Made by a program: the position numbers and the translations under genes. From IMG/VR virus record IMGVR_UViG_2740892230_000016: 64,000 nt of DNA, one strand, 5' to 3'. Positions 6,041 through 38,460 of this stretch are shown here, piece after piece (within the stretch, counting starts at the first letter, position 1; every line of letters begins with the position of its first letter). The notes beneath the pieces were generated by a model. That model searched no databases and was not told the origin of the DNA. It saw nothing but the letters and a program-made list of their open reading frames with translations. The DNA comes from a virus. Its lineage: Duplodnaviria; Heunggongvirae; Uroviricota; Caudoviricetes.

Positions 6041-6042
6041 AG

Positions 6043-6069
6043 AAATCCCGCCAATCGGCGGGATTTTTA
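6043..6069. terminator. bidirectional intrinsic terminator between convergent genes
   Basis: Inverted repeat AAATCCCGCC-aatc-GGCGGGATTT followed by T run, between stop at 6040 (+) and stop at 6072 (-). Confidence 0.6.
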
Positions 6070-6071
6070 CC

Positions 6072-7166
6072 TCACGAGAAGCTCTTTTCTGATGTCAGCC
6101 AACAGTGCTCGTGCAAATCTCTCGGAGGTTTTTCGACAAATGCCTCTTCAGCCACATCCTGCCAGGGGATTTGTTTAGCCCATTCAGCTATAGCGTTATG
6201 GTTTGCCGAGAATAACGGTATTGTATAGGCCTTCAGCCAGTCTAATGTGCTGGAGTTGTGTTTTTGAGCGTGATGTTTCGCATGGTGTTTGGCGATCACG
6301 ATCGTAGGCACTACCCATTTACTACCGTCAGTCATTGTGAAGTGCATATTACGGGGAACAGATGACTTTTCCATCAACTCCCGAATCCCGGGAAATTTCC
6401 CCAAGATCAATCGGCGATATTCATCGCTATTGCGCCCACCAAACTCTTTGGCTTTGAATTCAAGATATGCTTCAGAAACGAGAGGCGAATCCTCTGTGTT
6501 TAGAGTTATCGCCGTGAAAAAACCAGCAGGATTGTTTTTACTATGGGCCAACCGGTGATGCGAATCATAAAAGTACCCTTTCTCGCGTTCCGATGGTTTC
6601 GACAGCAACAGCAGGCGCGAGTCATAATTGGTTAAATTGCCAGTTATCACTGCATGAGCGCGATCGCTGATTTCCGCCGAGTTAATAACGATGAAAAGAT
6701 CGTGCGGTCCAGTAAAACCAGCCAGAGACACTTCGTTATTCAGACAATAGGTTATATAGACGCATCCCCATGTTTCACTGATATGCACCAACCCTTTGTC
6801 AGGGTGCATTCTGAAATGATTGCCAAGAAAAGGGTGTTTTTGGGTAACTCGCTCCCAATAACGGAACATATAGTCAATTATTGTTTTTCGACTATCGTTA
6901 ATAGCAGGAGAAACAACCACTGTACGGGAACACGAATACAGTATTGTTTGCAGGATGCTAATCACTGCCACAATAGAGGTTTCCCCAATACCATGTGGTG
7001 TGGTGGCAGTGACTTTGGCTCCGGTGTTCTTTATCGCGTTAATAATTTTTGCTTGATGAGGTGTTAACTCAATATCAAGCAACTCTTTCGCTGCCAGTTC
7101 CCAATTGTCTTTATACTGTTCTATCAGTGCTAACCAGGCAGATTCATTCTGTATACGATTAATCAC
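6072..7166 (-). CDS. terminase large subunit (PacB) paralog with degenerate Walker A/B motifs
   Basis: Clear similarity to PacB in this window (e.g. LLLSKPSEREKGYFYDSHHRLA vs [34 protein letters not shown] vs [13 protein letters not shown]) but Walker A GHGTGKS is PHGIGET and Walker B IIDEAS is VINSAE. Confidence 0.6.
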   Translation of the reverse strand: MINRIQNESAWLALIEQYKDNWELAAKELLDIELTPHQAKIINAIKNTGAKVTATTPHGIGETSIVAVISILQTILYSCSRTVVVSPAINDSRKTIIDYMFRYWERVTQKHPFLGNHFRMHPDKGLVHISETWGCVYITYCLNNEVSLAGFTGPHDLFIVINSAEISDRAHAVITGNLTNYDSRLLLLSKPSEREKGYFYDSHHRLAHSKNNPAGFFTAITLNTEDSPLVSEAYLEFKAKEFGGRNSDEYRRLILGKFPGIRELMEKSSVPRNMHFTMTDGSKWVVPTIVIAKHHAKHHAQKHNSSTLDWLKAYTIPLFSANHNAIAEWAKQIPWQDVAEEAFVEKPPRDLHEHCWLTSEKSFS

Positions 7167-12454: not shown

Positions 12455-15400
12455 ATGAACAAGCTATCTATGGGGGTGTTTCGCTGTTCAAGTGTCAGCG
12501 AAATATTGAAATACATTAGGGCAATAACATCTCACCGAGCGCCGATTAAATATGGCGTGGAAAAGGTGGAAGGCAAAAGCTATGACCGACTGCGCCGGGA
12601 GGCGAATCAGAAGGCGATAGATTTGCTTAATTCGCTGGTGGACGGCGCGACACTGACAGATGAACAGCGCCAGATCCTGGCTGGGTACACCGGTGAAGGC
12701 GGCATTGGCGGGTCCGTCTCCGAATATTACACACCAAAGCCGATCGCTGAAGGTGTCTGGGAGATCATGAAGCTCTACGGCGCGGACGTAGGTAACACTC
12801 TGGAACCATCGGCGGGAACCGGCGTTTTTAATGAGACAAAACCGGTTGGTACGGTGATGACCGCGACTGAGATCAGCAGTGTTTCCGGTCGTATAAACCA
12901 GTTGTTACACCCGGAAGACAGCGTACAGATTTCCCCGTTCGAACAGCTGGCTGTAAGCACGCCTAACGATTCATTCGACCATGTTGTGGGTAACGTTCCG
13001 TTCGGCGGTCGTGATAACACACGCAACATCGATAAGCCTTACGCAGAAGAAACGGACATGGGTTCTTACTTCATGCTCCGCATGCTGGACAAAATAAAGC
13101 CAGGCGGATTCATGTGTGTGATTGTGCCGCCGTCCATTGTTTCAGGTTCAAACATGAAGCGGTTACGCCTGCGCCTATCCCGTAAAGCTGAATTTCTTGG
13201 CGCTCACCGCTTGCCTACCGGTACTTTTGACGCAAACGGGACCAGTACAGTCGTTGATGTGGTGCTGATGCGCAAACATCCGGCGGAGATGGCTGAGAAA
13301 ATCCCCCTGGTGGATGAAAGCACTCTTGAATCGGCAAATGTGCTTTGGCCAACGTTTATTTCTGGCAAGTGGTTTGAAAAGGACGGTCGCCGGTTTGTTC
13401 ATGGTACCCAGGAAAAGGGCTTCCAGGGGCGTATTGAGGTTCGTGCCGACGGGCAGATTGATAACCAGGCTCTTAAAGCGAAGCTGATTCATCGTTTCGA
13501 AAGTCGTATCGACTGGTCTTTGCTCGATATGGCTGAACCGTCACCGACCGCAGATGTTGTTGATGAAGGGGAAATGCGCCTGATTAATGGCGTATGGCAA
13601 AAATATGCTGGTGGTCGCTGGATTGAAGCTGATGCCGGGAAGGAACTTAAGATCGATGCTGCCAGTTATGGCGCGGATAGCTGGGAGGCTCTTCAGCGTA
13701 ACCTGACTACAACAGAAGGCCGTCTCGGCATGACATTTACCCAGATGGCAAATGTCCGCGATAAGTACACCACATCAATCAGCGACGATATGGTGCAGCT
13801 GGTGGACTGGATTAACAGCCAGCCTGAAAAATACCGTGAACGCTTGTATCGCGGGGCGATGATTGGCCGGATGTTAATTGAATATCAGGACATGAAGGCC
13901 GCCGGGCATAGTGCTGAACAAATCGAACAGCAGCGCCTTTCTCTGGTATCCCGTTTGCAGGCAGAGATTGACCGTTTTGGTAACCCCGGTCGCGGCCCGA
14001 TAGCGAAATTATCGGGGAGCGGTGCGCGCGCCTGGTTTGCTTTCCGTGGTGCAATTAAGCTGGATGGCACTATTTCTGACGAGCTGGCAGGAAAGCTGGT
14101 TACGCATGATTCCAGCGCAAGTTATGACTCCACCAGCTATCAGGACACCCTGCGTTATCTCTACAGTGATCTCACTCGCGATCCAATCCAGCTCGATGAT
14201 TTCCGCCTTGCGTTTACCGGCGAACTGCCAGCCAGTGATGAAGAGTTGCTTAATTTATTGGCCAGCACCCCTGGTATTGCGGTTTCACCGTATGGCGGGA
14301 TTGTTCCGTTCGCCCGCGCCACCAGCGGCGACATTAACGAGATAGTGGCTCCAAAACAGGAATTCCTCGCCACGCTCCCCGACGGTCCAGTAAAGAACAA
14401 CGTCCTTAATCAGCTGGCAGCGATCGAAGAGAAGCGCATCAAGACGCCAGCAGAGAATATCCGGTTTAAGCTCAATAGCCGTTGGTTCGACCGTTCCGTC
14501 ATTCTGGAATTTTTGCAGGAAAACGGCTATCCGGATCTGCGCTATGTGCAGTCAGTGCAGCTTGAAGGCGACGAAATGGTTTCTGACACCTATCACGGTG
14601 GTGATGGTCTGTTCGTCGGGCACCGATACGGTGTCGTCCAGCGCAAGGATAAAGAAACAGGCGAGATCCGCTACGAGTGGGACCGTAAATCAGGTGAAAA
14701 CGCGACCGGGTTCCCGGCACAGCTGGAAAAGTATCTCAATGGTGCGCGTATCGGTGGCAAAGATAGCGCGACGGCTAACGGCTACCGCGAGCAGATGGCA
14801 CTGCTTGAGGACCAGTTCAATAAGTGGATCAAGACGCACGATCGCTACGATGAGCTGGTTGCCAAATACAACGATGTGTTCAATAGCAATATCCCGTATG
14901 AACACTCTGGCGATCCGCTTGGGTTGAAGGGATTAAGCGGTAAGCGCCAGCCATTTGATTACCAGAATAGCGAGGTGCGCCGACTGTCCGAAGATGGGCG
15001 CGGCATCCTGGGCTTCGGCACCGGGCTGGGTAAAACCACGACCGCGCTGGCGCTTGAGGCGTTCAACTATGAGAACGGTCGTTCCACCCGTACTGCGTAT
15101 GTAGTGCCTAAATCAGTGCTGGAAAACTGGTATTACGAAGCAAAAGAGTTTCTGAGTGAAGAGGCATTCAGTAACTACCTGTTCGTCGGTCTTGATGTGC
15201 TGATGGATGGCGATCAGATTCGCCAGGTGCCGGTGCTCGATGAGAACGGTAAACCTGTTCTTGGTACTGATGGCACTCCAGTTATGCGCGATGCTCTTAA
15301 GCTGGCAGATGAAGCCACTATCACGGCGCGGATGAACGCGATCCCGCACTCAAATTACCGTGCAGTCGTGTTTACCAAAGAACAATACGCCCGCATTCCG

Positions 15401-18400
15401 CTACGTGATGACACCGTAGATGAGCATGCACAGGATATGCTTTATGACTTCGTTGCCGCCGGACGCGTAGCCAGCGCAATGGACTCCGACTCCCACCGCA
15501 AAGAGGCCGCGCGTCGCCGGGTATTGTCGGAGTATTCAGATACCGGCACCGAAAAAGCAGAGAAGTATCCGTACTTTGAGGATATGGGCTTCGATAGTGT
15601 GATCGCTGACGAAGGTCACAACTACCGCAATAGCTATAAAAATGGTCGCGAAGCGTCACAACTGGCCTATCTGCCCACCAGCGCGGTGGCGCAATCGGCG
15701 CGAGATATGGCAATTAAAAACGCGTACCTGATGAAAAAGAATGGCGGGCGCGGGCCGGTTCTCCTGACTGCAACGCCAGTCGTTAACACCCCGATCGATG
15801 CATACAACATGCTTTCTCATGTTCTGCCGAAGGAATACTGGCAGAACATGGGGATCTACGGTCCTGATGACTTCGTTAAATTCTTCGGCAAGACCAGGCT
15901 GGAAACGGTACAGAAAATCAGCGGTGAAGTTGAAGAAAAAATGGCGCTGGTGGGCTTTGAAAACCTTGATGCGCTGCGCGGTATATTCCATCGCTGGGTA
16001 ACGCTTAAAACGGCGGAAGACGTTAAGGATACCGTGGAGATCCCGGAGCTGGACGAACACCAGCAGGATGCACCACTTACTGAAGAACAACTGGCGGCGT
16101 ATGAAGAATTGCGTCAGCAGGCGGAAGCGGCGGCCAAAGCCAACAATGGCGTAACGACCTCGGTCAATGAAGACGGCGTGATTGAGCACGAGAAAGCCCG
16201 TCCGATCTTCTCAATAATCAGGGATATGGACCGCGTATGTACTGACATGGACCTGTACTATCGCCGGATCACCTATCGTTTCCTGCCGGAGTACGCCGAT
16301 GCGGTGCAGCAGCTGGCGGACAGTTTGCCTAAACAAGCCACCAGCGAATACGACGACAGTGATGATTCAATCACGCAGCAATCGCAATACTCCCTGATAG
16401 ATAAGGGCGAGTTTATTCAGTTGCAGGTTCCGGAAGCGTTCGAGCAGGAAGTGAATAAGCGCCTGGCCAGGTTTGGCATTGACGAACAGACCGTAACTCA
16501 CCCCGTTACGCCCAAATACGCGAAGCTGATCGCCACGCTGAAGGAGTTTTTCCCGGAAGGTAAGCAAATCATCTTCACCGATGAAAAAACGCAGCACCAG
16601 AAGCTCAAGCGCATTATCTGCAATGCTCTAAACCTTGAACCTTCAAAGGTGGGGATCCTGAATGCTCAGACGGTTGCCGAGGCAGGTAAAACCGGTAAGA
16701 AACTGAAAGCGGTTAAACCGCCGAAAGAGCTACCGGATGAACCAACAGATGCACAGATAGCGAAATACAACGAGCAAATGGCTCTGCATGACGCCTATAT
16801 CGCGCAGCAAAATGAAATGTCGTTGGGCGGTCTGGAAAAGATTGCAGCCGACTTCCAGGAGGGCCGGACTCCGATCATCATCTGCAACAAAAAGGCAGAG
16901 GTGGGTATCAACCTGCATCGAGGAACGACGGATATCCACCACCTGACGTTGCCGTGGACACCAGCCAGTATCGCACAACGTAACGGTCGCGGTGCACGAG
17001 TTGGCTCCAACCGTGCAAGCGTTCGCGTTCACTACTACTGCGGCAAGGGGTCTTTCGATGAATACCGACTGAAGACGCTGAAGCGTAAAGCAGGCTGGAT
17101 CTCCGATATCCTCCGTTCAGATAAGTCAGAAATGGAGAACGCCGACGCCAATGACATGATCGAAATGCAGATGTATACCGCGAAGGATGACGGCGAACGT
17201 CTGGCAATGATGCAGGTTCAAATGGATAAGGCGAAAGCTGCGAAACGCGCTCGCCAGAAAGAACAGGCTACTATCGACCTTCAGAACTACATCAAGGCGC
17301 AGCACGCAGCTGGCGAGGATGTGGAGGTACTTACCGCTGAATTAGAGCGAAGCAAAGCGGAACTTGAAAAGACCACCGCCGAGGTAGCTAAATTCAAACA
17401 GGCGGCAATGGCCAAGGCAGCGGATAACGCAGACTGGAAGGCCCGCTGGGGGAGTGTCCATCACACAGACCGTATGTTGTTAGCACAGTATCGCGCGTCG
17501 TTGAAAAGCGCCATTCAGCGCAAGGCTAATATCTCTCAGGCCATCTCACGCTATGAGAAATTATTGAACCGTACTCAGAAGGCCGCGACGGATATCAAAC
17601 GCCTGCGCCCGCTGGTGGAGGATGCAATAAATAAAGGCATTCTGGATATTGATCCTGACCTGGTTAACCATGCGAGTGAGTTCCTTGTTATCGGCGATCG
17701 CTCATGGCGTGTAGGCCAATACTACGATTGTGCCGGTGATATCGTTCGCATTAAGTCGCTGGACTTCGACAGCCAGCGCGCAGACGTGGAGATCATCTTT
17801 ACCTTCAAAGGCACCAAATCGGGTAACTGGGATGTGAAGACGCTGGATAAACAGGTTGATGTAACTCCCGATGAAGATGCTGTTATGCAGAAAATCAGTG
17901 GTGGCGTCTCCATCGCCGGGATTAACGACATCATTTCCTGTGACGATTTCTACCGTTTCCAGCAGCGCGGCATGATCAAAATCACTGACTCATACGGCGT
18001 TCAGACTACAGAGTCAGGCTATAGCATTGATTTTGTTGGCACCTATACGGACCCACTGAAGCATGCGGTTTACCCGGATCGCCGTGACGGCGCGCTGAAG
18101 TCGTCAATTGCAAAATGGGTGCTTGGTATGATGTCGGAAGGGAATAACCGCCAGATCCGTTCGGCAGAAACATTCCTGGTTGAATTGTTTGGCTTCAATT
18201 ATGGCGATGTAATCGCGTCATACGGAGATACGCTATCCCCTGAAGCAATTCAGGAGAAAATAGCGGATGCGATCACCAGAATGCCGGAAAAAACAAGCCA
18301 GGGGTCTACTCGTAACGGGGATTCTGAACTTGAAGTCACCAATGCCATTTTCGGTACCAATGAGTTCCGGGCGTCAGATTATGAGATCACCACAGCACAG

Positions 18401-19222
18401 TTTGGCACCATTGGCATTTACAGCAATAAAGACGAGATCAAGCAGGCAATGGACGCAGCAAGCGCGCGCATCGCAGCAGAACGGGAAGCCAATCTGAATC
18501 ATGCAGTCGCCGCGCTGACTCAATCGTGGGTAACAGCAATCAGGGAGGCCGCCACCACAGGGAAAATCACACCTGCAATTGCGGATGTCGTAAACGACGG
18601 CTCTAAATTTATGGATGCCTATAAAATGGATTCGGTGCAGTTGCCATCAGCCTATGGCCAACTCAGCTATCGCATGACCTACAACCTGGTATCAATGTTT
18701 TCCGACCTTGCCATCCTTGGGCTGGTGGATCTTAACGAGGTTACGCCGGAATTGCTCAGCATGCGCAAGAATCATGTGGAGATATTGCAGAGAATTAACA
18801 CGGTTCTTGCCGGGCGCACCGATGAAGAGAAACAGGCCGACGCTGATCGGATAAACCTGGCCCTTGGCAACATCACGGAGGAAGAGATTGCCGCCAGAAA
18901 CGAGAAACAAGAAGAGTTATCATCAATACAGGGTGATGCCACCAGCATAGCTCAGTCTCTTGGTCTGAATTATCGCGTATCCACCGCCGACCTGAAGATG
19001 ATGTACGCACCAAAATTCGCCGCTGGCGAGGTATTTGGGCTTCAGGAAGCCTCAGGCATGAAAGGCGTTCTTTTCCGTGCGAAAGACGCAATCAAGGCGA
19101 AATTCGGCGCTCGCTGGCTGCCAGCGAAGGCGAAGAACAGCGATTTCCCGGGTAACTGGTGGATTATCGAGACAAAACACAACGTGGCGGACGTTCTGGC
19201 CGTCATCCAACAATACGCATAA
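12455..19222 (+). CDS. darB: DarB antirestriction protein: N6-adenine methyltransferase fused to SF2 DEAH helicase (2255 aa)
   Basis: 2255-aa product; methyltransferase motif GNVPFGG; helicase Walker A GFGTGLGKTT and DEGH box; AAGGA RBS upstream of ATG. Confidence 0.85.
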   Translation: MNKLSMGVFRCSSVSEILKYIRAITSHRAPIKYGVEKVEGKSYDRLRREANQKAIDLLNSLVDGATLTDEQRQILAGYTGEGGIGGSVSEYYTPKPIAEGVWEIMKLYGADVGNTLEPSAGTGVFNETKPVGTVMTATEISSVSGRINQLLHPEDSVQISPFEQLAVSTPNDSFDHVVGNVPFGGRDNTRNIDKPYAEETDMGSYFMLRMLDKIKPGGFMCVIVPPSIVSGSNMKRLRLRLSRKAEFLGAHRLPTGTFDANGTSTVVDVVLMRKHPAEMAEKIPLVDESTLESANVLWPTFISGKWFEKDGRRFVHGTQEKGFQGRIEVRADGQIDNQALKAKLIHRFESRIDWSLLDMAEPSPTADVVDEGEMRLINGVWQKYAGGRWIEADAGKELKIDAASYGADSWEALQRNLTTTEGRLGMTFTQMANVRDKYTTSISDDMVQLVDWINSQPEKYRERLYRGAMIGRMLIEYQDMKAAGHSAEQIEQQRLSLVSRLQAEIDRFGNPGRGPIAKLSGSGARAWFAFRGAIKLDGTISDELAGKLVTHDSSASYDSTSYQDTLRYLYSDLTRDPIQLDDFRLAFTGELPASDEELLNLLASTPGIAVSPYGGIVPFARATSGDINEIVAPKQEFLATLPDGPVKNNVLNQLAAIEEKRIKTPAENIRFKLNSRWFDRSVILEFLQENGYPDLRYVQSVQLEGDEMVSDTYHGGDGLFVGHRYGVVQRKDKETGEIRYEWDRKSGENATGFPAQLEKYLNGARIGGKDSATANGYREQMALLEDQFNKWIKTHDRYDELVAKYNDVFNSNIPYEHSGDPLGLKGLSGKRQPFDYQNSEVRRLSEDGRGILGFGTGLGKTTTALALEAFNYENGRSTRTAYVVPKSVLENWYYEAKEFLSEEAFSNYLFVGLDVLMDGDQIRQVPVLDENGKPVLGTDGTPVMRDALKLADEATITARMNAIPHSNYRAVVFTKEQYARIPLRDDTVDEHAQDMLYDFVAAGRVASAMDSDSHRKEAARRRVLSEYSDTGTEKAEKYPYFEDMGFDSVIADEGHNYRNSYKNGREASQLAYLPTSAVAQSARDMAIKNAYLMKKNGGRGPVLLTATPVVNTPIDAYNMLSHVLPKEYWQNMGIYGPDDFVKFFGKTRLETVQKISGEVEEKMALVGFENLDALRGIFHRWVTLKTAEDVKDTVEIPELDEHQQDAPLTEEQLAAYEELRQQAEAAAKANNGVTTSVNEDGVIEHEKARPIFSIIRDMDRVCTDMDLYYRRITYRFLPEYADAVQQLADSLPKQATSEYDDSDDSITQQSQYSLIDKGEFIQLQVPEAFEQEVNKRLARFGIDEQTVTHPVTPKYAKLIATLKEFFPEGKQIIFTDEKTQHQKLKRIICNALNLEPSKVGILNAQTVAEAGKTGKKLKAVKPPKELPDEPTDAQIAKYNEQMALHDAYIAQQNEMSLGGLEKIAADFQEGRTPIIICNKKAEVGINLHRGTTDIHHLTLPWTPASIAQRNGRGARVGSNRASVRVHYYCGKGSFDEYRLKTLKRKAGWISDILRSDKSEMENADANDMIEMQMYTAKDDGERLAMMQVQMDKAKAAKRARQKEQATIDLQNYIKAQHAAGEDVEVLTAELERSKAELEKTTAEVAKFKQAAMAKAADNADWKARWGSVHHTDRMLLAQYRASLKSAIQRKANISQAISRYEKLLNRTQKAATDIKRLRPLVEDAINKGILDIDPDLVNHASEFLVIGDRSWRVGQYYDCAGDIVRIKSLDFDSQRADVEIIFTFKGTKSGNWDVKTLDKQVDVTPDEDAVMQKISGGVSIAGINDIISCDDFYRFQQRGMIKITDSYGVQTTESGYSIDFVGTYTDPLKHAVYPDRRDGALKSSIAKWVLGMMSEGNNRQIRSAETFLVELFGFNYGDVIASYGDTLSPEAIQEKIADAITRMPEKTSQGSTRNGDSELEVTNAIFGTNEFRASDYEITTAQFGTIGIYSNKDEIKQAMDAASARIAAEREANLNHAVAALTQSWVTAIREAATTGKITPAIADVVNDGSKFMDAYKMDSVQLPSAYGQLSYRMTYNLVSMFSDLAILGLVDLNEVTPELLSMRKNHVEILQRINTVLAGRTDEEKQADADRINLALGNITEEEIAARNEKQEELSSIQGDATSIAQSLGLNYRVSTADLKMMYAPKFAAGEVFGLQEASGMKGVLFRAKDAIKAKFGARWLPAKAKNSDFPGNWWIIETKHNVADVLAVIQQYA

Positions 19223-19255: not shown

Positions 19256-19696
19256 ATGGCCACACTATCTGATACAATAAAACCGAATAAAACATATCTT
19301 GAGGCGGTACTGCGTACGGCGTTGTTAGGAAAGACAGAAGACGAATACGTTGATTTCTTCCTGTCAGGGCTACGCGGGCGATTACTGAAAAATCCCCGCC
19401 TGTACCGCAGCTATGGTCCATACTGGCCGGAAATTAAAAAATTATTACTGGAGCGCGGTTATGGTAATTTCGGTCGTCTCGTTGACCGTGACGTTCGCAA
19501 AATTTACCGTTATGACCGCCCGGCGCTGACGCTCATAGCTGCGACGCTCTACAGCCAGGAGCGTTTTGATAATGGTCAGATATACTCAGCCTGGCATTTA
19601 CTGCCAGTGCCTGAAGAGGTTGACGACCAGGACTATGAGTTTGAGTCTTACGATTTGGAAGTTGAAGCCTTAGCACAGGCTGGAGAGAAAACTTGA
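19256..19696 (+). CDS. ulx: Ulx-like protein (146 aa)
   Basis: ORF immediately downstream of darB and upstream of lxc, matching recalled P1 order darB-ulx-lxc. Confidence 0.45.
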   Translation: MATLSDTIKPNKTYLEAVLRTALLGKTEDEYVDFFLSGLRGRLLKNPRLYRSYGPYWPEIKKLLLERGYGNFGRLVDRDVRKIYRYDRPALTLIAATLYSQERFDNGQIYSAWHLLPVPEEVDDQDYEFESYDLEVEALAQAGEKT

Positions 19697-19941
19697 AAAA
19701 GCGATACTACACAGTAAAGCATGGGACGCTACGAGCATTACAAGAGTTTGCTGATAAGCATAACGTTGAGGTGCGCAGGGAAGGGGGAAGTAAAGCTCTG
19801 CGCATGTACCGTCCGGACGGAAAATGGCGGACGGTCGTCGATTTCAAAACTAACAGCGTTCCCCAGGGCGTCCGCGACCGGGCATTCGAAGAATGGGAGC
19901 AAATCATCATAGATAATGCATTGCTCCTGAATGCGGATTGA
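19693..19941 (+). CDS. lxc: Lxc/Bof-like C1 co-repressor (82 aa)
   Basis: 82-aa ORF overlapping ulx stop; size and position match recalled P1 lxc (bof). Confidence 0.55.
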   Translation: MKKRYYTVKHGTLRALQEFADKHNVEVRREGGSKALRMYRPDGKWRTVVDFKTNSVPQGVRDRAFEEWEQIIIDNALLLNAD

Positions 19942-19950
19942 TTTATATAT

Positions 19951-19970
19951 CGGGCAGTTGTAGCTGCCCG
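19951..19970. terminator. hairpin between convergent lxc and SIR2-like gene
   Basis: CGGGCAG-ttgtag-CTGCCCG inverted repeat flanked by AT-rich sequence on both sides. Confidence 0.5.
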
Positions 19971-19992
19971 TTAAATGTTTGCAGCGTTTCAA

Positions 19993-21300
19993 TTACACTA
20001 TATTTTTCACTATAGAATTGGCGTCATCCAGTACGCCAAGTTCCTCGATGTGTTTTTTTATAATTAATCGATTTGAAGCAATGATTGTAGACCATCGCGT
20101 TTCCCAAGCTCTATAAGCATGCCACGAATAACCTAACCGTCTTTCTTTGCTCATATTGGACATTGAGTATTCGACTGCTTCTAAATATGCCTTTTCATAT
20201 TTAGTGCCAGCAATTTCTATGATACTTCCAAAATATATAAGCCATTTTGCAAGTTGTTCATATTGCTCCCAAGCGCCGCTCTCTCTTGTTAAATTTCTTT
20301 TTTGTTCTATTATCCTCTTAAAAAATTCAACAACTCTGCTGTCACTCCAATCCAAACCTTCAGATATAATTGAAGAAATTATCTGATAAAATGAGTCTTC
20401 TAATCTAATATATTCATTCTTATATGTATGAGAACCTACAATAACTTTTCTAATGTTTTCACGAGCTCTCTCCATTATATCTTCTATGAGCAGTATCTTA
20501 CTGCTCAGTCGATGAAAGAAATCATCTATTTCCGTATTATCAATTACCCTTATTCCAAAACAATAAAAGTAATAGTCCTTCATGTCTTGACTTACTTCGC
20601 CATGAGATATGAAGAATATATTAGAGCACAGTGCATTATCTTTAGAAAATGTCTTATAACTATTTATAATTGCCTTAAGGTTTGTATCACTTAAAGAATA
20701 TCCTAATATCACAACTGTATTTTCATGTAGTATCGTACTAAGTTTTTGTGAAAAATAGGTGTCAGAGTTTATAAACCTGAAGTAGTCTTCTGAAGTAACA
20801 ACCATGTTTTTTGGTGAATCAATAGAACCATGGACATGATATATTTTAACTTTAGATGAGTATTTAGGAATAGGTAAGCCCGGGGTAATAGACTGTACTT
20901 CCTCATCTCCAGTTAAGCATTCAGCTAACTTGTCATAATTTGTTGTAATGACACGGAATGAATTTTTTTGAAAAAAATCTTTTATATTTGATATATCTTC
21001 TCCAAGTTGAATTGGAGATATGATCTCAACAATTTCATCATAAATCGACTTACCCTCAATATTGAGCTTCAAAGATAGTATTTGTGCGGCTTCTTCAAGG
21101 CTCAATGCTGGTGGTTTATCATCAGGGAATAACGTGTCTTCCAACTGTTTGGCGTTGTGAACTTTGCTGCAAACTTTTTTTAATAGTTCTTTCCACGTTG
21201 GAGCTTCGCCGTTCGAGACTGCCTTTGAAAAGCCAGTCCCGGTAAATAGACAAAGCCTGCTTGTAGCGGCAGCGTATGCTAACTCAACATATTCGCTCAT
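19993..21300 (-). CDS. SIR2-like (SIR2_2 family) protein, 435 aa, candidate NAD-depleting antiphage effector
   Basis: Motifs FTGTGFS (aa 19-25), TTNYD with N121, YHVHG with H157, VVILGYSLSD; strongly AT-rich relative to flanks; occupies the slot where P1 carries res/mod. Confidence 0.7.
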   Translation of the reverse strand: MSEYVELAYAAATSRLCLFTGTGFSKAVSNGEAPTWKELLKKVCSKVHNAKQLEDTLFPDDKPPALSLEEAAQILSLKLNIEGKSIYDEIVEIISPIQLGEDISNIKDFFQKNSFRVITTNYDKLAECLTGDEEVQSITPGLPIPKYSSKVKIYHVHGSIDSPKNMVVTSEDYFRFINSDTYFSQKLSTILHENTVVILGYSLSDTNLKAIINSYKTFSKDNALCSNIFFISHGEVSQDMKDYYFYCFGIRVIDNTEIDDFFHRLSSKILLIEDIMERARENIRKVIVGSHTYKNEYIRLEDSFYQIISSIISEGLDWSDSRVVEFFKRIIEQKRNLTRESGAWEQYEQLAKWLIYFGSIIEIAGTKYEKAYLEAVEYSMSNMSKERRLGYSWHAYRAWETRWSTIIASNRLIIKKHIEELGVLDDANSIVKNIV

Positions 21301-21356
21301 TACTTACTCCATTTACTTATAGTTCTATGGAGAAGTATACCCTAATGCATTGACGT

Positions 21357-21998
21357 TTATAGATAATTTCCTTTTCCTGTTAATTCCCCTTTCGGCACCC
21401 GTTTTTGTGCCAGCGTTTGGGTTCCGCGAATTATGTTAATCAGAGGGCTTAGTAACGATGGTTCTTGGCGTGCCTCAACTTCTCCAGCCATTGCCCTGAT
21501 GTAGTCTGCGCTGGCAACGTTGTTGTATTCCGTCGCAAAGCAACATAGTAACGTCAGAACATGCTCTGTCGTTATTTCGCTCCAGTTGATGTTGAAAAAT
21601 TCATCGCCTTTTTTATCGTGTTCGGAATCAAAGATGCTTTGGTGGAGGATGTATTTGCCGGATTCTTTGCGCGGTAACTTGATCGCTTTCTGGCGTTCCA
21701 GCTCCTTGTAAATCTGCATTGCTTCAATTAGTACCGGCCTGCTGTTCATGAAGGGATCGCGCAACCTTACACGCTGGCCAACTCTACCGGTAATAAAGCT
21801 GTTTTCCTCTTCCACCAGCACGATAAAACCTTTTTCCTCTTTCTCACGCAATTCGCGCAGCAACTGGAGTTCCATATCGCGGCGGCGTTCAGGGTAGCTG
21901 GTCCGCTCAGCCATTATCAGCTCGTTGTTGATCCATGCAGCAGTCATTGACGCCGGTTTGCCGACGCTCATCGAAACAACGCATATTTTCTTATCCAT
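21357..21998 (-). CDS. mat: Mat-like protein
   Basis: ORF between ref and the res/mod slot as in P1; first ATG (MDKKICV) at 21998, ORF track start at 22025 is GTG. Confidence 0.45.
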   Translation of the reverse strand: MDKKICVVSMSVGKPASMTAAWINNELIMAERTSYPERRRDMELQLLRELREKEEKGFIVLVEEENSFITGRVGQRVRLRDPFMNSRPVLIEAMQIYKELERQKAIKLPRKESGKYILHQSIFDSEHDKKGDEFFNINWSEITTEHVLTLLCCFATEYNNVASADYIRAMAGEVEARQEPSLLSPLINIIRGTQTLAQKRVPKGELTGKGNYL

Positions 21999-22186
21999 AG
22001 CGCCCCTACAAAAAAGAAAAGCCACCAGCGGCGGCTTAGCAATACAACTGAAGGTAGCGCCCGGTACTCAGACTGTGCCGTCCATGGAATATTTGAAAAG
22101 GGATCCATCCGTACCGGGCATGTGATGATTCTGACTGAAGTCACTTGTCAGTTGTCAATTATTTCAGATTAAAAATAATATATTTA

Positions 22187-22747
22187 TTAGTGCATGATGT
22201 TTGCCATCTCATAGGCGTCAGCCAGCAACTCCATCTCTGACTTGTTCAGCAAGGTGAATTCTTTCTTGCCTCCAACCACACCATCGGCATGAACAGGGAC
22301 CAGCCAGGGGTATTTTTCTCTTACTTCAGCCGGTGCTGCATGCTGGTGGTGCCATCTACAAAGGGGCAATTGCTTTTTGTGACAACCCGGCGCGGTACGA
22401 CCGGAGATATGGTGCAGAGATACCTCTTCAGATATTACTCCATGCATGTAGCAGGCAATGCAAGGGAGAGCGCCAAGAGCATTGGCGATGCTCTGTTCCT
22501 CCGCTGTCGGTGTTCGCCCCTTCAAGCCACGAGATTTTATCTTTACCGCACTTTTCCGCGTTTTGCTGGCTGGTGGGCGCTCTTTCTGTTTAGCGATACG
22601 GCGGTCGATAGAATCCCGCATTTTCTGATATTGCGATTCTCGCCAGGCGGGGTCAGCCAACTTTTCCCGTTGCCGAGCGATCGCTCGTTCTCTGGCTGCC
22701 TTCTGCCACTCGCGGCGCTGTTCAAGTTTTTGTTCGATTGTTTTCAT
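22187..22747 (-). CDS. ref: Ref recombination enhancement function, HNH-type nuclease (186 aa)
   Basis: 186-aa product with Cys/His cluster (CIACYMHG...HHISG...CRWHHQH); position between cra and mat. Confidence 0.8.
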   Translation of the reverse strand: MKTIEQKLEQRREWQKAARERAIARQREKLADPAWRESQYQKMRDSIDRRIAKQKERPPASKTRKSAVKIKSRGLKGRTPTAEEQSIANALGALPCIACYMHGVISEEVSLHHISGRTAPGCHKKQLPLCRWHHQHAAPAEVREKYPWLVPVHADGVVGGKKEFTLLNKSEMELLADAYEMANIMH

Positions 22748-33360: not shown

Positions 33361-34134
33361 TCAGATATCGGCCTTATTCGGAATTTTATCAGCCACCAGC
33401 TGCAATAAAGCCTTCGCCATTTCATGAACCAACATGGCATCAATGACGCCTAGCGTATGGCCCGGCTTAATCTTTAATGCGGCCTCAAGATAGCCTCTTT
33501 CCAGAGTGGTTTTTACGCTTTTCTTGGGCGATTGTTGGGAACTATCCGGAAAATCCGGATGGTTGCCAGCCACATAAGCTACCCGCAACCAGTGCATGAA
33601 TGTTTCCGCAGACACACAACCGCAGTCCACATCGATTTTCCCGCGTTGCTGTTCCAGCCATTGCTCAAAATCTAACTTGTAAGCCTTACTTTCAGGTTCA
33701 TCACCATTGAACTCGACTTTCTGCGACGCTATGAGAGCAGCTTCGTATTGTTCGCGAGTGACAACTGACTGGTATTCATCGCTATCAAGGTCACCGATTG
33801 GAAGCTCAATCTCACAACAAAAATTGCGCCCAAAGAAAGTGTCTTTTTTGTGGTCCGAGCCAAAAGCAAAAGTCGCGCATGGCGCCATTAAATTGGCACT
33901 GAGCAGGCGACAATCGATCATACCATCAGGCCACCCGCCGCACTTGGGCAGCTCCTTCACTAACAAGTCGATAAGCTTCATTTTTTTATCATCTTTGCAA
34001 GCCGCCAAAGCCATTTGGGCAAGTGCCAATACTTCATCTGCCGTATATCCAGCACCGTGACCATACATTTCGATACGGGCGATAATCTCTGATATGCGTT
34101 CTTTAGTGATTCTTGTCATTTCTTTTTGCGCCAT
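33361..34134 (-). CDS. hypothetical protein (257 aa)
   Basis: ORF only; no recognisable motif. Confidence 0.4.
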   Translation of the reverse strand: MAQKEMTRITKERISEIIARIEMYGHGAGYTADEVLALAQMALAACKDDKKMKLIDLLVKELPKCGGWPDGMIDCRLLSANLMAPCATFAFGSDHKKDTFFGRNFCCEIELPIGDLDSDEYQSVVTREQYEAALIASQKVEFNGDEPESKAYKLDFEQWLEQQRGKIDVDCGCVSAETFMHWLRVAYVAGNHPDFPDSSQQSPKKSVKTTLERGYLEAALKIKPGHTLGVIDAMLVHEMAKALLQLVADKIPNKADI

Positions 34135-34490
34135 TTCTTTTCACATTCCTTAGTCCATTTTTCAATGTTCATTTTGGCAATATCAGTCATTCCATCACCT
34201 AAGAAATACTTTTTCCGGTATGCCTTGCACTTAAACCACACTACAACAGCCACCAGCCAGAAAATAAAAGGCCATACAGCAATACCAACGACAGCCGCGA
34301 TAAAGCCCAATAGCCATAAATGAAGCTCTCCAACTTCTGTTTCCGGCAATATTCTTAAAGAATTAAACAGCAGGCTGAACGAATGGTCGTATGCATTGGC
34401 AGTATAAGACATGCAATCCATATAATTAAAGTCATAGCCTGCGGCTGCCGCCCATAATGGGCGGTCAAGAAAATGTTTTAGTGTCATCAT
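34116..34490 (-). CDS. hypothetical membrane protein (124 aa)
   Basis: Hydrophobic stretch WLLGFIAAVVGIAVWPFIFWLVAVVVW; AT-rich codon usage. Confidence 0.4.
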   Translation of the reverse strand: MMTLKHFLDRPLWAAAAGYDFNYMDCMSYTANAYDHSFSLLFNSLRILPETEVGELHLWLLGFIAAVVGIAVWPFIFWLVAVVVWFKCKAYRKKYFLGDGMTDIAKMNIEKWTKECEKKWRKKK

Positions 34491-34496
34491 ATAAAT

Positions 34497-34877
34497 TTAA
34501 GGTTCAGACCAGTTATCTTCAATAGCAATGCTTAATCTTTGTAGCCATTCTGCTAATTTCAGCATTGCTTCTCTTTCGCTTAAACCACGAGGAAAATCAT
34601 CAAGTGAAATTGTTGGCTTGAATCCCCCGTAATTATCCATTTCAACTGTCAGATTTTGTTCCAGCACGGTATTTCTTACGCGACTATTGTGCCGGAGCAA
34701 ATATACTGAGCGTGATTTATTGGTTTTGTGGTCTAGCTTATATTCGGTAAGTATCATCTGGCTTTTGCCATGACTATTACCTCTCCACATACTTACCTCA
34801 CTTAATAAAACAACTCCATACGTAGTTGATGATTTTTTCCCACGTAATATAAATATGCACTCCAGCAGAAAAACCAA
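34497..34877 (-). CDS. hypothetical protein (up to 126 aa; likely shorter)
   Basis: ORF in AT-rich segment; N-terminus of ORF-track model looks non-coding, internal ATG plausible. Confidence 0.3.
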   Translation of the reverse strand: MVFLLECIFILRGKKSSTTYGVVLLSEVSMWRGNSHGKSQMILTEYKLDHKTNKSRSVYLLRHNSRVRNTVLEQNLTVEMDNYGGFKPTISLDDFPRGLSEREAMLKLAEWLQRLSIAIEDNWSEP

Positions 34878-34968
34878 AACCTACAATTACTGAAAAAATC
34901 AAAACATTTACTTTTGACATTATAAAATTTCTCTCGTTGCCGTAGGTGATAGCACCATAATTGCTAAT

Positions 34969-35220
34969 TTAGTGAGTTAGCAGTTCCATTTTTTGGATGA
35001 TTTCCGCATGAGCATCATCGTTGTCAACACTTAACTCGTTTAATGCCTCTCGCACTACATCAACTTCTTCTGGTTGGAAGAAGTCATCTCGGTAGTCACC
35101 AAATAGAACCGAAACAAGCCTGCCACCAGCAACATCAAGATTGGCGCTAACAGGTGGCTCTTTACCATCCTCAAATTCGACTACAAAAGTTAATTTCCCC
35201 ATCGTTACCACCAGCGACAA
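34969..35220 (-). CDS. hypothetical protein (83 aa)
   Basis: ORF only. Confidence 0.3.
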   Translation of the reverse strand: MSLVVTMGKLTFVVEFEDGKEPPVSANLDVAGGRLVSVLFGDYRDDFFQPEEVDVVREALNELSVDNDDAHAEIIQKMELLTH

Positions 35221-35284
35221 ATTGAATACAAACCCAGTGCTGCCGCCATCACAATTCCTACCGTTGCGAATGCTTCAGGCCAGC

Positions 35285-36475
35285 TCATTGACCTGCCTCC
35301 TGGGGAGGTTCTGGTAGCAGCATCCAGAACAAGGCGTTCCCTAACCACGATAAAGTGCCGTCGCTCAACTCCACGTATTCCCCTTGCACCTGTCCTGCCA
35401 TATACTCACCGTGCTTTGAATAAATTAAAATCCAATCATCTTGAGCGGGCATTCGCTCACTACAGCTTATCCAACCATCCGGAGTTACCGGAGAATTGCC
35501 ATTTACCAAGTCAGCTCGAACATATAGCGTGTCATCATGGTGCTGATTGTGGCTGCACCACGTTAATTCGCTTAACTCGCCATCTTCTGGCCATACTCCA
35601 GCTGTTTGCAGCCAGATATGGGCTGGCGCATCCTGGCAAGGTGTATTAACTGGAAACTTGTAAGTTTGGCTTACAGGTTGGCTACCCTGAAGCATGGCAG
35701 CGTGGCAGGCATACTCAACGCCCTTAACTGCATCTGCGCAGTAGTTATAGCGATTGCATTCCACTAATTTCCGTTTGAGTTTTTCAATTGCCTGCGCGAC
35801 ATCAGCCTGTATTACAGGAACTGGCGGAACGGCTGTTTGCTCTCGAACGTCATTAGTCGCTATCGGTTCTGCTGCCAACTGACTGGCATATTTGTTAATG
35901 GTAACGATAAGCTCTTGCTCAGCCTCATCCAGACAATCACCGATACCTCGCCTGTCACCGTCAAAATCATCGAAATCGGCACGAATCTTGGCAACCTTCA
36001 GGATTGCGGACAACACCTCACTAGGAATTACCGGATAGTTGGTTGACGTTTCCGCGATTTCCCGAAAATTATTGGTTGACGAATTCTTGTTTTCCCGAAA
36101 GTTTCCGGACTGAAGCATGGCGGCGCGGCAGGCGTTCCAGCCATCTGCGTAACAATCTCTGTGTGTCTTGAAATATGTCACCGCCCTTGGTACATCGTTT
36201 ACGTCTATTTCATCCGGCACAACCGGCGCAGGTGAGTCAGCATAAACAGGAATAACGTCCGGTTGCTCTTTATTGCTTTCATCCGTTAAAGCCCAGAATA
36301 ATTTCCCGGCCGGATGTTTGAAAATATAAGCAACTGGTTCTGCTTCCAGTGATGCCAGCGCAATTTTGTATACTTCCAGATCCATTTGTGCAGTTACTAA
36401 ATCAGGATAACGATCCATAACCGTTATATTGCGCTTAATTATCTCTATTAATTGTTCTTTAGTAAAAGTGGTCAT
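35285..36475 (-). CDS. DUF551-like prophage early-region protein (396 aa)
   Basis: C-terminal W-rich segment ending WMLLPEPP resembles DUF551 proteins of lambdoid prophages (from memory). Confidence 0.45.
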   Translation of the reverse strand: MTTFTKEQLIEIIKRNITVMDRYPDLVTAQMDLEVYKIALASLEAEPVAYIFKHPAGKLFWALTDESNKEQPDVIPVYADSPAPVVPDEIDVNDVPRAVTYFKTHRDCYADGWNACRAAMLQSGNFRENKNSSTNNFREIAETSTNYPVIPSEVLSAILKVAKIRADFDDFDGDRRGIGDCLDEAEQELIVTINKYASQLAAEPIATNDVREQTAVPPVPVIQADVAQAIEKLKRKLVECNRYNYCADAVKGVEYACHAAMLQGSQPVSQTYKFPVNTPCQDAPAHIWLQTAGVWPEDGELSELTWCSHNQHHDDTLYVRADLVNGNSPVTPDGWISCSERMPAQDDWILIYSKHGEYMAGQVQGEYVELSDGTLSWLGNALFWMLLPEPPQEAGQ

Positions 36476-36485
36476 TCGTTATGCC

Positions 36486-36683
36486 TCAATACACAAAATC
36501 TGTTTTAAATTCATGGTTACATTCTGGGCAGCATGTTTCGTAACCTTTTATTTCTTCACATGCCTGTTTTGCTCCAGAAAATTCCCAGAAATCAGCATCG
36601 CAAAGCAGATCGAAATTGTGGCCGCATTTGGGACATTCGGTATCAAGTGAAAGACTCCAGTAAGCAGTGGTGTTTTTATCCAT
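36486..36683 (-). CDS. small zinc-ribbon protein
   Basis: CPKCGH...CCPECNH paired cysteine motifs. Confidence 0.4.
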   Translation of the reverse strand: MDKNTTAYWSLSLDTECPKCGHNFDLLCDADFWEFSGAKQACEEIKGYETCCPECNHEFKTDFVY

Positions 36684-36684
36684 A

Positions 36685-36906: not shown

Positions 36907-36907
36907 A

Positions 36908-38310: not shown

Positions 38311-38460
38311 ATTTTCGTCTCGTTATGGGAGGGGAATTGGTTGTAAGCTGGAATTGCCGGATGTTTACCCGTGTCCGGCGCACGACCTCACGTTGCAGCG
38401 TACGAGAATAGACTATTGCTCAGTATCGTTTGATGTCGGCTGAGGACATTCGCCTTGCTC

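What the first reader, a model, noticed from the sequence alone, without database searches (positions are those of the whole stretch)
19942..21356. Single SIR2-like gene replaces the res/mod restriction operon in the P1 defence slot
Between lxc and mat, where P1 carries the EcoP1I mod/res operon, this window has one 435-aa ORF on the opposite strand. Its N-terminal half carries SIR2_2 hallmarks (FTGTGFS, TTNYD with N121, YHVHG with H157, ILGYSLSD) and its C-terminal ~180 aa are helical and W-rich with no motif I recognise (not an obvious SLOG domain). No TIR, HerA, Argonaute or other known SIR2 partner gene is adjacent. The gene is strongly AT-rich compared with the flanks and is bracketed by a hairpin terminator on the lxc side. 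A stand-alone short SIR2 effector in a phage-plasmid would be a candidate NAD-depleting antiphage or exclusion system carried by a phage.
Basis: partly seen in the sequence, partly recalled or inferred. Interest (0 to 1): 0.8.

Follow-up and report, generated by a model that had tools for sequence, protein, structure and literature searches.

The report
Lone SIR2 gene in P1 defence slot
A P1-like phage-plasmid carries, where phage P1 has its restriction enzyme genes, a single uncharacterised gene with an NAD-cleaving SIR2 domain fused to a helical domain found in no other protein family; it is probably a one-protein anti-phage system, but this has not been tested.

Summary
A 435-aa ORF (19993-21300, minus strand) fills an AT-rich ~1.4-kb cassette (19951-21356) between lxc and mat. 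Canonical P1 has res/mod there.

Residues 1-257 are a SIR2_2 domain (Pfam E 1e-23). It keeps the catalytic Asn/His equivalent to DSR2 N133/H171 and is structurally closest to DSR2.

Residues 258-435 form a short HEAT/ARM-like alpha-solenoid. A profile search of 1.84 billion representative proteins found it only in this fixed architecture.

The gene needs no partner: in 65 species no neighbouring gene family recurs in more than 7 loci. Neighbours often include unrelated defence genes. An E. coli homologue lies next to the integrase of a lambdoid prophage.

The slot is the known hotspot RD-1. It also hosts EcoP1I and the validated CapRel of phage SJ46. About 18% of P1-like plasmids in PLSDB carry this SIR2 family, as four mosaic allele classes under purifying selection.

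It fails the membership tests for ThsA, DSR1/2, SIR2-HerA, SPARSA, Avs5, Lamassu and PADLOC PDC-S25. I found no paper that describes it.

Best reading (about 0.6): a stand-alone abortive-infection NADase whose solenoid senses a phage protein. NADase activity, defence, trigger and expression are all untested.

Separately, the far half of the window is an Stx2 lambdoid segment.

The parts
19951..21356 (.). AT-rich cargo cassette in the P1 lxc-mat slot (hotspot RD-1). It replaces the res/mod operon of canonical P1.
   Evidence: Homology to P1-like elements with other cargo stops at about 19950 and resumes at about 21357-21363. Local blastn against P1 leaves 19951-21488 unmatched. GC is about 0.30-0.35 against about 0.50 in the flanks.
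19993..21300 (-). SIR2-family ORF, 435 aa, stop codon included
   Evidence: ORF list. Pfam SIR2_2 E 9.8e-24. 689 homologues, conserved over the full length of about 434 aa. dN/dS 0.07-0.22 between slot alleles.
20530..21300 (-). N-terminal SIR2 (Rossmann) domain, residues 1-257, with catalytic N121, D123 and H157. It has no zinc-ribbon CxxC motif.
   Evidence: N121 aligns with DSR2 N133 and H157 with DSR2 H171. Foldseek best hits are DSR2, with TM 0.72-0.74 to the isolated DSR2 SIR2 chain, then ThsA and KomC. The motifs are invariant in alignment A1. No CxxC motif.
19996..20529 (-). C-terminal Trp-rich alpha-solenoid domain, residues 258-435. Proposed sensor or regulatory module.
19951..19970 (.). 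Hairpin CGGGCAG-TTGTAG-CTGCCCG between the convergent lxc and SIR2 genes, inside the cassette
   Evidence: Sequence. RNA fold dG -13.4 (minus strand) and -17.7 (plus-strand context), z -3.2 and -2.7. Not called a terminator by the consensus scan.
21307..21310 (-). Shine-Dalgarno GGAG, with its last base 6 nt before the ATG (first G 9 nt before)
   Evidence: Sequence. The 56-nt mat-SIR2 spacer is about 100% identical in all four allele classes.
21357..22025 (-). mat (maturation control), the upstream flank. It has the same orientation as SIR2 and ends 56 nt before the SIR2 start, with no terminator detected in between.
   Evidence: ORF list. RefSeq annotation of the identical plasmid region. 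Terminator scan.
22128..22196 (-). The Omat operator (C1-controlled) and the Pmat/LPmat promoters upstream of mat, conserved from P1. Possible source of read-through transcription into SIR2.
   Evidence: 97% identical to AF234172 2620-2830. The annotated Omat sequence CATGCACTAATAAATATA is identical.
19693..19941 (+). lxc (modulator of C1), the downstream flank, convergent with SIR2
   Evidence: ORF list. P1 annotation. Plasmid annotations.

Best explanation
The gene encodes a self-contained, one-protein anti-phage (or inter-element exclusion) system carried as cargo in the P1 RD-1 hotspot.

Proposed mechanism:
- The N-terminal SIR2 domain is a latent NAD+ glycohydrolase.
- The family-specific C-terminal alpha-solenoid holds it inactive and acts as the sensor.
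- When a superinfecting phage makes a particular protein, or perturbs the cell in a particular way, the solenoid binds the trigger and the enzyme is released, probably with a change in oligomeric state.
- NAD+ is hydrolysed and the infected cell stops supporting phage growth (abortive infection). This protects sister lysogens and the resident phage-plasmid.

This is the logic of DSR2 (a SIR2 domain plus a HEAT-like sensor that binds the phage tail tube) in a protein less than half its size.

Shown here: domain identities, catalytic residues, single-gene status, location in a hotspot, purifying selection, mosaic alleles.

Inferred: NADase activity, defence phenotype, the sensor role of the solenoid, the trigger, and expression in the lysogen.
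For: Catalytic domain:
- SIR2_2 domain with invariant N121, D123 and H157, which align to DSR2 N133 and H171.
- The closest structures are the defence NADases DSR2, ThsA and KomC.
- There is no CxxC zinc module of classical deacetylating sirtuins.

Single-gene status:
- 65 species loci share no neighbouring gene family in more than 7 loci. Neighbours lie on either strand.

Defence context:
- The same slot carries EcoP1I res/mod in P1.
- It carries the RelA/SpoT gene of phage SJ46. That gene is the experimentally validated CapRel(SJ46) (PMC9712102).
- Other cargo in the slot matches PADLOC candidate families PDC-S31, S33 and S34.
- A 60%-identical homologue sits directly after the integrase at the edge of a lambdoid prophage in many E. 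coli.
- Among the 123 nearest neighbours in other species there are strong hits to many different defence families, each in only 1-2 loci: dGTPase, MADS, type I restriction enzyme, AbiU, AbiD, PD-T7-1, PD-T7-5, GajB, DRT.

Evolution:
- Both domains are under purifying selection (dN/dS 0.07-0.22). The C-terminal domain diverges faster.
- Four allele classes (100, 88, 87 and 60% aa identity) are shuffled by intragenic recombination inside about 97%-identical flanks.
- The solenoid occurs only fused to this SIR2 domain.
Against: - There is no experimental evidence for any family member. I found none in the literature searches.
- No strong sigma-70 promoter is predicted upstream.
- The gene lies 56 nt downstream of mat, which in P1 is driven by a C1-repressed promoter and a late promoter. 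It may therefore be poorly expressed in the lysogen, when a defence gene would be needed.
- Many chromosomal copies sit next to ordinary housekeeping genes.
- The structural matches for the solenoid are generic, so they say nothing specific about what it binds.
- PADLOC and NCBIfam match only the SIR2 core.
- A DefenseFinder survey of P1/D6 elements does not list any SIR2 system (bioRxiv 10.1101/2025.09.12.675607).
Confidence: 0.6

Rival explanations
1. The protein serves the phage's own lytic programme or inter-element warfare rather than defence of the lysogen. Transcribed with mat from the C1-controlled and late promoters, it would act during P1 development. It might remodel NAD+ metabolism, destroy NAD-derived immune signals, or shut down the host.
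For: - Same orientation as mat, 56 nt downstream, with no terminator detected between them and no strong promoter of its own.
- Omat, Pmat and LPmat are conserved.
- The spacer and the first codons are fixed in all alleles.
- The adjacent operon on the other side (darB, ulx) is anti-restriction.
Against: - The family is mostly chromosomal and not phage-borne in other species.
- None of 50,697 deposited phage genomes carries it.
- Cargo in this slot can lie on either strand.
- CapRel, in the same orientation after mat, is a bona fide defence gene that works from its native promoter (PMC9712102).
- No SIR2_2 protein is known to me as a counter-defence factor. That rests on my own knowledge.
Confidence: 0.15
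2. It is a SIR2-fold enzyme with a function unrelated to phages, such as a protein deacylase or ADP-ribosyltransferase, or a regulator of metabolism or stress. It merely hitch-hikes in a permissive, AT-rich insertion site.
For: - RefSeq labels it 'SIR2 family NAD-dependent protein deacylase'.
- Many chromosomal copies have housekeeping neighbours (Dus, EPSP synthase, aconitase, ABC transporters).
- The slot also holds non-defence-looking cargo (GNAT, EAL).
Against: - The RefSeq name is generic.
- It belongs to the SIR2_2 clade, and its nearest structural relatives are all defence NADases.
- It lacks the zinc module of deacylating sirtuins.
- It recurs in two unrelated temperate-phage cargo positions.
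- Defence genes are frequent among its neighbours.
- The allele mosaicism is typical of immunity genes.
Confidence: 0.15
3. It is the effector half of a multi-component system whose partner is unlinked. The partner could be a host factor, a gene elsewhere on the P1 backbone, or a signal-producing TIR as in Thoeris.
For: - Most characterised short SIR2 effectors (ThsA, KomC, SIR2-HerA, SPARSA, Lamassu LmuA) need partners. That rests on my own knowledge.
- One of the 123 neighbours scanned is a ThsB-like TIR protein.
Against: - No neighbouring gene family recurs in more than 7 of 65 species loci.
- The C-terminal domain is not a SLOG or other known ligand-binding fold.
- The family occurs in P1, in lambdoid prophages and on chromosomes of many orders with no common backbone.
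- No TIR, HerA or Argonaute gene was found among the window ORFs I scanned.
Confidence: 0.07
4. It is a decaying or inactive remnant.
For: None specific. The very low GC could suggest a foreign, unadapted gene.
Against: - Full-length, intact ORFs occur in over 120 plasmids.
- dN/dS is 0.07-0.22.
- The catalytic residues are invariant across Proteobacteria.
Confidence: 0.02

Closest known systems
DSR2 (defence-associated sirtuin 2, Bacillus subtilis; PDB 8wkt, 8k98 and others)
   Same: - A single-polypeptide system with an N-terminal SIR2 NADase domain.
- Best sequence match (E 3e-11) and best fold match (TM 0.72-0.74 to the isolated SIR2 chain).
- Same catalytic Asn/His.
- The region C-terminal to SIR2 is an alpha-helical, HEAT-like repeat. 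In DSR2 that region binds the phage tail tube protein (PMC11263360, PMC11087589).
   Different: - 435 aa against about 1005 aa. The solenoid here is about 180 aa (about 4 helical hairpins) against about 700 aa.
- No detectable sequence similarity outside the SIR2 domain.
- NCBIfam Dsr2 scores 25.8 bits against a cutoff of 1400.
- Trigger and oligomeric state are unknown here.
Thoeris ThsA (SIR2-SLOG) with ThsB (TIR)
   Same: - The SIR2_2 NADase core. The PADLOC ThsA models match the SIR2 part at E 1e-17.
- Similar overall length (about 475 aa).
   Different: - The C-terminal domain is all-alpha, not the alpha/beta SLOG/STALD domain that binds gcADPR.
- No conserved ThsB: one TIR-like neighbour among the 123 scanned.
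PADLOC candidate PDC-S25 (untested single-gene SIR2 candidate)
   Same: - Best PADLOC hit (E 2.3e-28).
- Also a predicted single-gene SIR2 system.
   Different: Only profile positions 126-287 of 517 align, that is the SIR2 core. The rest of the profile, including its C-terminal part, is not matched. This is a different family.
CapRel(SJ46) and EcoP1I, the other occupants of the same P1 slot
   Same: - Same genomic position between lxc and mat in P1-like elements.
- CapRel is also a single gene in the same orientation after mat. It fuses an effector to a C-terminal sensor that binds a phage protein directly (PMC9712102).
   Different: - Unrelated proteins and chemistry. CapRel pyrophosphorylates tRNA, according to PMC9712102 and my own knowledge. 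EcoP1I is a type III restriction-modification enzyme.
SIR2-HerA (Nezha), SPARSA (SIR2-APAZ plus short pAgo), Kongming KomC, Avs5 (SIR2-STAND), Lamassu LmuA-SIR2
   Same: A SIR2 NADase effector domain. KomC and LmuA give sequence or fold matches over the SIR2 core only.
   Different: - Each needs a partner (HerA, pAgo, KomA/B, LmuB/C) or a fused NTPase.
- None of these is adjacent or fused here.

Membership tests
SIR2_2 superfamily (Pfam PF13289) | Match to the SIR2_2 profile above the gathering score | tested here: met
   84.5 bits against a cutoff of 24.5, E 9.8e-24, profile positions 3-138 of 141.
SIR2_2 superfamily (Pfam PF13289) | Catalytic Asn and His of defence SIR2 NADases (DSR2 N133 and H171) | tested here: met
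   N121 and H157 align to them and are invariant in 38 family members.
SIR2_2 superfamily (Pfam PF13289) | NAD+ glycohydrolase activity | not testable with these tools
   Needs an enzyme assay.
DSR2 | Equivalog-level match over the whole ~1000-aa protein (NCBIfam NF041819, cutoff 1400 bits) | tested here: not met
   25.8 bits, SIR2 core only. The protein is 435 aa.
DSR2 | Long HEAT-like MID/CTD region that binds the phage tail tube protein | tested here: inconclusive
   A short alpha-solenoid is present, but it shares no sequence similarity with DSR2 and binding cannot be tested here.
DSR1 | Equivalog-level match (NCBIfam NF041818, cutoff 1400 bits) | tested here: not met
   27.8 bits.
Thoeris ThsA | C-terminal SLOG/STALD ligand-binding domain | tested here: not met
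Thoeris ThsA | Adjacent ThsB (TIR) gene | tested here: not met
   None beside the gene in the window or in the P1-like plasmids. One ThsB-like hit among 123 neighbours in 63 species.
SIR2-HerA | Adjacent HerA-type ATPase/helicase gene | tested here: not met
   No recurrent neighbour family: the most common occurs in 7 of 65 loci and is an ABC ATPase at a median distance of 4 kb.
SPARSA (short pAgo with SIR2-APAZ) | APAZ domain fused to SIR2, plus an adjacent short Argonaute | tested here: not met
   No Pfam domain other than SIR2_2. No conserved neighbour.
Avs5 (SIR2-STAND) | Central STAND NTPase domain | tested here: not met
   The protein is 435 aa with no NTPase domain. The model shows only a Rossmann SIR2 fold plus a helical domain.
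PADLOC PDC-S25 | Full-length match to the ~517-aa profile | tested here: not met
   Only profile positions 126-287 are matched, by query residues 99-257.
Lamassu LmuA (SIR2 type) | Full-length LmuA match and an adjacent LmuB SMC-like ATPase | tested here: not met
   Profile positions 14-223 of 433 only. No conserved SMC neighbour: SMC_N in 2 of 123 neighbours.
P1 RD-1 (res/mod) cargo hotspot | Located between conserved lxc and mat of a P1-type backbone, in place of res/mod | tested here: met
   The hotspot is described in PMC6906374.
Anti-phage defence system (generic) | Reduces phage plaquing when expressed | not testable with these tools
   Only contextual evidence is available.

The most novel reading that the evidence does not exclude
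This would be the founding member of a new one-protein immune family, a 'mini-DSR'. A minimal SIR2 NADase is gated by a private ~180-residue alpha-solenoid that directly recognises a phage protein. Temperate phages (P1-like phage-plasmids and lambdoid prophages) spread it as an exclusion weapon. Its recombining allele series would reflect an arms race over trigger specificity. At 435 aa it would be among the smallest complete sensor-effector NADase systems, and a tractable model for how a SIR2 domain is switched on.
Probability: 0.5. Interest if true: 0.6.

Novelty: new variant of a known kind. Interest (0 to 1): 0.52.

Why it matters
SIR2 NADases are a major class of bacterial immune effectors. 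The characterised ones are either large (DSR1/2, Avs5) or need partners (Thoeris, SIR2-HerA, SPARSA, Kongming).

A 435-aa protein that carries both sensor and effector would be a minimal system for studying how these enzymes are activated.

It also matters for phage-plasmid biology. About one in six P1-like elements in E. coli and Salmonella collections carries this gene at the site where P1 keeps EcoP1I and SJ46 keeps CapRel. Current defence-annotation surveys of these clinically relevant elements do not report it. If it works as proposed, it would affect which phages can infect these lysogens, including therapeutic phages.

The mosaic allele series offers natural variants for mapping specificity.

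Tried and rejected
- ThsA with a SLOG domain: rejected. The C-terminal domain is all-alpha and the ThsA profile matches only the SIR2 core.
- A partner gene next door or conserved elsewhere: rejected by clustering neighbours in 65 species loci.
- The C-terminal domain as a shuffled sensor module shared with other effectors: rejected at HMMER sensitivity. All 94 hits among 1.84 billion representatives are this same architecture or fragments of it.
- AFDB50 fold search: the library was unavailable.
- Viral structure library BFVD: no match at E <= 0.001.
- Deposited phage genomes: no copy of the gene.
- Own promoter: the consensus scan found no convincing sigma-70 promoter in the 56-nt spacer. 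By eye there is only a reasonable -10 (TATACT) with a poor -35.
- Literature: searches for PDC-S25, the RefSeq accessions, stand-alone SIR2, and P1-like plus SIR2 found no paper on this family.
- Pseudogene: rejected by dN/dS.
Full report
1. WHAT IS THERE

The window's first ~38 kb is a P1-type phage-plasmid backbone. Its genes are:
- darB (12455-19222, +)
- ulx (19256-19696, +)
- lxc (19693-19941, +)
- mat (21357-22025, -)
- ref (22187-22747, -; Pfam RecA_dep_nuc)
- cre (23357-24388, -)

Between lxc and mat lies one ORF, 19993-21300 on the minus strand, 435 aa. It is 34% GC (GC3 29%). The neighbouring genes are 48-52% GC.

In canonical P1 (AF234172) the same interval holds res and mod of EcoP1I, on the same strand as lxc.

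Homology to P1-like elements with other cargo breaks at about 19950 and resumes at about 21357-21363. Local blastn against a P1 genome leaves 19951-21488 unmatched. The cassette is therefore about 19951-21356.

It contains three features:
- the ORF;
- a Shine-Dalgarno GGAG whose last base lies 6 nt before the ATG;
- a hairpin at 19951-19970 between the convergent lxc and SIR2 genes (dG -13.4 kcal/mol, z -3.2).

The hairpin lacks a proper U-run and was not called a terminator by the scan.

2. THE PROTEIN

SIR2 domain.
- Pfam SIR2_2 matches residues 117-250 at E 9.8e-24.
- In the HMMER alignment to DSR2, N121 pairs with N133 and H157 with H171. H171 is the residue mutated in the 'DSR2 H171A' structures.
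- There is no CxxC zinc module, so this is not a classical deacetylating sirtuin.

Structure.
- An AlphaFold2 model (pLDDT 85, pTM 0.70) shows a Rossmann-type SIR2 domain (residues 1-257) followed by an all-helical domain (258-435).
- Foldseek against the PDB ranks DSR2 first (E about 1e-12; TM 0.72-0.74 to the isolated DSR2 SIR2 chain). ThsA and KomC follow.

C-terminal domain.
- Modelled alone (pLDDT 88.6), it is a short alpha-solenoid.
- Pfam and PDB sequence searches find nothing.
- A profile of this domain, searched against 1.84 billion representative proteins, gives 94 hits. Every full-length hit is 406-480 aa with the domain at about residues 256-435. Every one I tested has an N-terminal SIR2_2 domain.
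- The solenoid is therefore private to this family and the architecture is fixed.

3. STAND-ALONE STATUS AND CONTEXT

The family is large: 689 hits, 53-61% identical over the full length, in Enterobacterales, Vibrionales, Pseudomonadales, Burkholderiales, Rhizobiales and others.

No fixed partner. I called ORFs in 65 species loci with 8-kb flanks and clustered all neighbours. The most frequent neighbour family occurs in 7 loci, at a median distance of 4 kb. The adjacent genes are unrelated and lie on either strand.

Defence-rich neighbourhood. A batch scan of the 123 nearest neighbours found strong matches to many different defence families, each in only one or two loci. These were dGTPase, MADS, PDC-S31/DUF2971, type I restriction enzyme, AbiU, AbiD, PD-T7-1, PD-T7-5, GajB, DRT and one ThsB. 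Housekeeping genes were also present. This is the pattern of a gene that often lands in defence islands but has no partner. My statement that this frequency is above the genomic background rests on general knowledge, not on a control computed here.

Prophage copy. In E. coli chromosomes a 60%-identical homologue sits directly downstream of the integrase, at the boundary of a lambdoid prophage. That is a classic position for prophage accessory genes ('morons').

4. THE SLOT

The lxc-mat interval is hypervariable. 703 PLSDB plasmids match the flanks. The cargo includes:
- this SIR2 gene
- a RelA/SpoT gene
- YaaC plus a hypothetical gene
- a PIN-domain gene
- a DUF2971 gene
- an EAL gene plus an HTH gene
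- a GNAT gene
- res/mod

Cargo lies on either strand.

The locus was described as hotspot RD-1 by Venturini et al. (PMC6906374), without mention of SIR2.

The RelA/SpoT occupant in Salmonella phage SJ46 is the experimentally validated CapRel(SJ46) (PMC9712102). It lies in the same orientation after mat. Its PADLOC match is PDC-S33. The DUF2971 and PIN cargoes match PDC-S31 and PDC-S34.

Prevalence of the SIR2 family:
- tblastn finds it in 127 PLSDB plasmids, nearly all E. coli replicons of 90-120 kb. That is about 18% of plasmids with this slot.
- It is in 141 of 5426 complete E. coli genomes: 136 places on plasmids and 10 on chromosomes.
- None of 50,697 deposited phage genomes has it.
- A DefenseFinder-based survey of 1592 P1/D6 elements lists type III R-M, dGTPase, PrrC and CapRel, but no SIR2 system.

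5. EVOLUTION

Four allele classes occupy the slot, at 100, 88, 87 and 60% aa identity.
- Between alleles, dN/dS is 0.07-0.09 in the SIR2 domain and 0.13-0.22 in the solenoid.
- dS is 0.4-1.2, although the flanks are about 97% identical.
- The 56-nt mat-SIR2 spacer and the first codons are about 100% identical in all classes.
- Identity along the gene is mosaic.

The alleles are old, functional, and exchanged by recombination both in the flanks and inside the gene.

6. REGULATION (INFERRED)

- No terminator is detected between mat and SIR2, and no convincing sigma-70 promoter lies in the spacer.
- The Omat operator and the Pmat/LPmat promoters upstream of mat are 97% identical to those of P1.
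- The gene may therefore be read through from a C1-repressed/late promoter, have a weak promoter of its own, or both.
- This is the main uncertainty for a lysogen-protective role, and it motivates the first rival explanation.

7. INTERPRETATION

Most likely (about 0.6): a one-protein abortive-infection NADase in which the private solenoid is the autoinhibitory sensor. This is analogous to DSR2 but less than half its size.

Rivals:
- a role in P1's own lytic programme or counter-defence (0.15);
- a SIR2 enzyme unrelated to phages (0.15);
- an effector with an unlinked partner (0.07);
- a remnant (0.02; contradicted by selection).

8. COMPARISON AND NOVELTY

It works like DSR2 and is a member of the SIR2_2 superfamily. 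It fails the defining features of DSR1/2, ThsA, SIR2-HerA, SPARSA, Avs5, Lamassu LmuA and PADLOC PDC-S25.

I found no publication on it.

The gene is already in databases under a generic name, and the hotspot is known. What is new is a distinct, widespread single-gene SIR2 family with a private sensor-like domain. I rate it a new variant of a known kind, of moderate interest and readily testable.

9. SIDE OBSERVATION

From about 38 kb to the end, the window is not P1. It is a lambdoid, Stx-phage-like segment with:
- RecT;
- a Rha/Ash regulatory protein;
- a PstI-type R-M pair;
- a helicase and a primase;
- an intact stx2A/stx2B pair;
- a NanS-like esterase.

No PLSDB plasmid covers more than about 25% of the stretch I searched across this region (window 31000-55000), and no complete E. 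coli genome spans the junction.

The joint runs through an ead/Ea22-DUF551 module that P1-like plasmids and lambdoid prophages share. It could be a natural recombinant or an assembly chimera.

Noticed in passing
window 38000-64000 (junction zone about 31800-38900): The second half of the window is not P1. It is a lambdoid, Stx-phage-like segment contiguous with the P1-type backbone. It carries DUF2303/YfdQ, RecT, Rha/Ash, a helicase, a primase and a NanS-like esterase. The joint lies in an ead/Ea22-DUF551 module shared by P1-like plasmids and lambdoid prophages. In PLSDB the best record covers only 25% of window 31000-55000. No complete E. coli genome covers 80% or more of window 36000-40000. 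It is either a natural P1::Stx-phage hybrid or an assembly chimera.
   Followed up: partly
window 55105-56537 (+): An intact Shiga toxin 2 operon. Stx2A begins at an internal Met ([10 protein letters not shown]...) of ORF 55105-56256. Stx2B is the 89-aa ORF at 56268-56537.
   Followed up: partly
window 45557-47976 (-): A type II restriction-modification pair in the lambdoid segment: a BsuBI/PstI-family endonuclease (45557-46510) and an Eco57I-like methylase (46507-47976). This is a second defence cargo in the window.
   Followed up: no
window 6041-7157: A 1.1-kb stretch with no P1 match, where P1 carries its IS1/isaA-isaB region. This corresponds to hotspot RD-2 of PMC6906374. I did not examine its content.
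   Followed up: no
window 21357-21488 (-): The last ~44 codons of mat do not match canonical P1, but they do match most P1-like plasmids. The RD-1 boundary in P1 itself therefore lies inside the 3' end of mat.
   Followed up: no
window 22019-22037 (-): A terminator-like hairpin with a T-run (AAGCCGCCGCTGGTGGCTT TTCTTTTTTG). It lies between Pmat/LPmat and the shorter annotated mat start, and is conserved in P1. It could attenuate transcription into mat and the cargo gene.
   Followed up: no
L085-L090 (the same slot in other P1-like plasmids): Other cargo in the slot matches consecutive PADLOC single-gene candidates: RelA/SpoT (CapRel type) matches PDC-S33, DUF2971 matches PDC-S31, and the PIN-domain gene matches PDC-S34. 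YaaC plus a hypothetical gene, and EAL plus HTH, have no PADLOC match and are untested candidates.
   Followed up: partly
L091-L094, 8001-9311: A 60%-identical SIR2 homologue lies directly after the integrase at the end of a lambdoid prophage inserted near the ccm operon in many E. coli. A 38-aa ORF precedes it in some copies.
   Followed up: partly
window 19993-21300 compared with L002, L003 and L085: The SIR2 alleles in the slot are mosaics. The 5' UTR and first ~115 codons are about 95-100% shared among three classes. The middle and the 3' end are swapped independently. The most variable stretch is residues ~257-297, the first long helix of the solenoid.
   Followed up: partly
one of loci L004-L074 (not identified): One nearest neighbour of a family member is a strong ThsB/TIR match (E 6e-52). 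I did not check whether it belongs to a separate adjacent Thoeris system.
   Followed up: no
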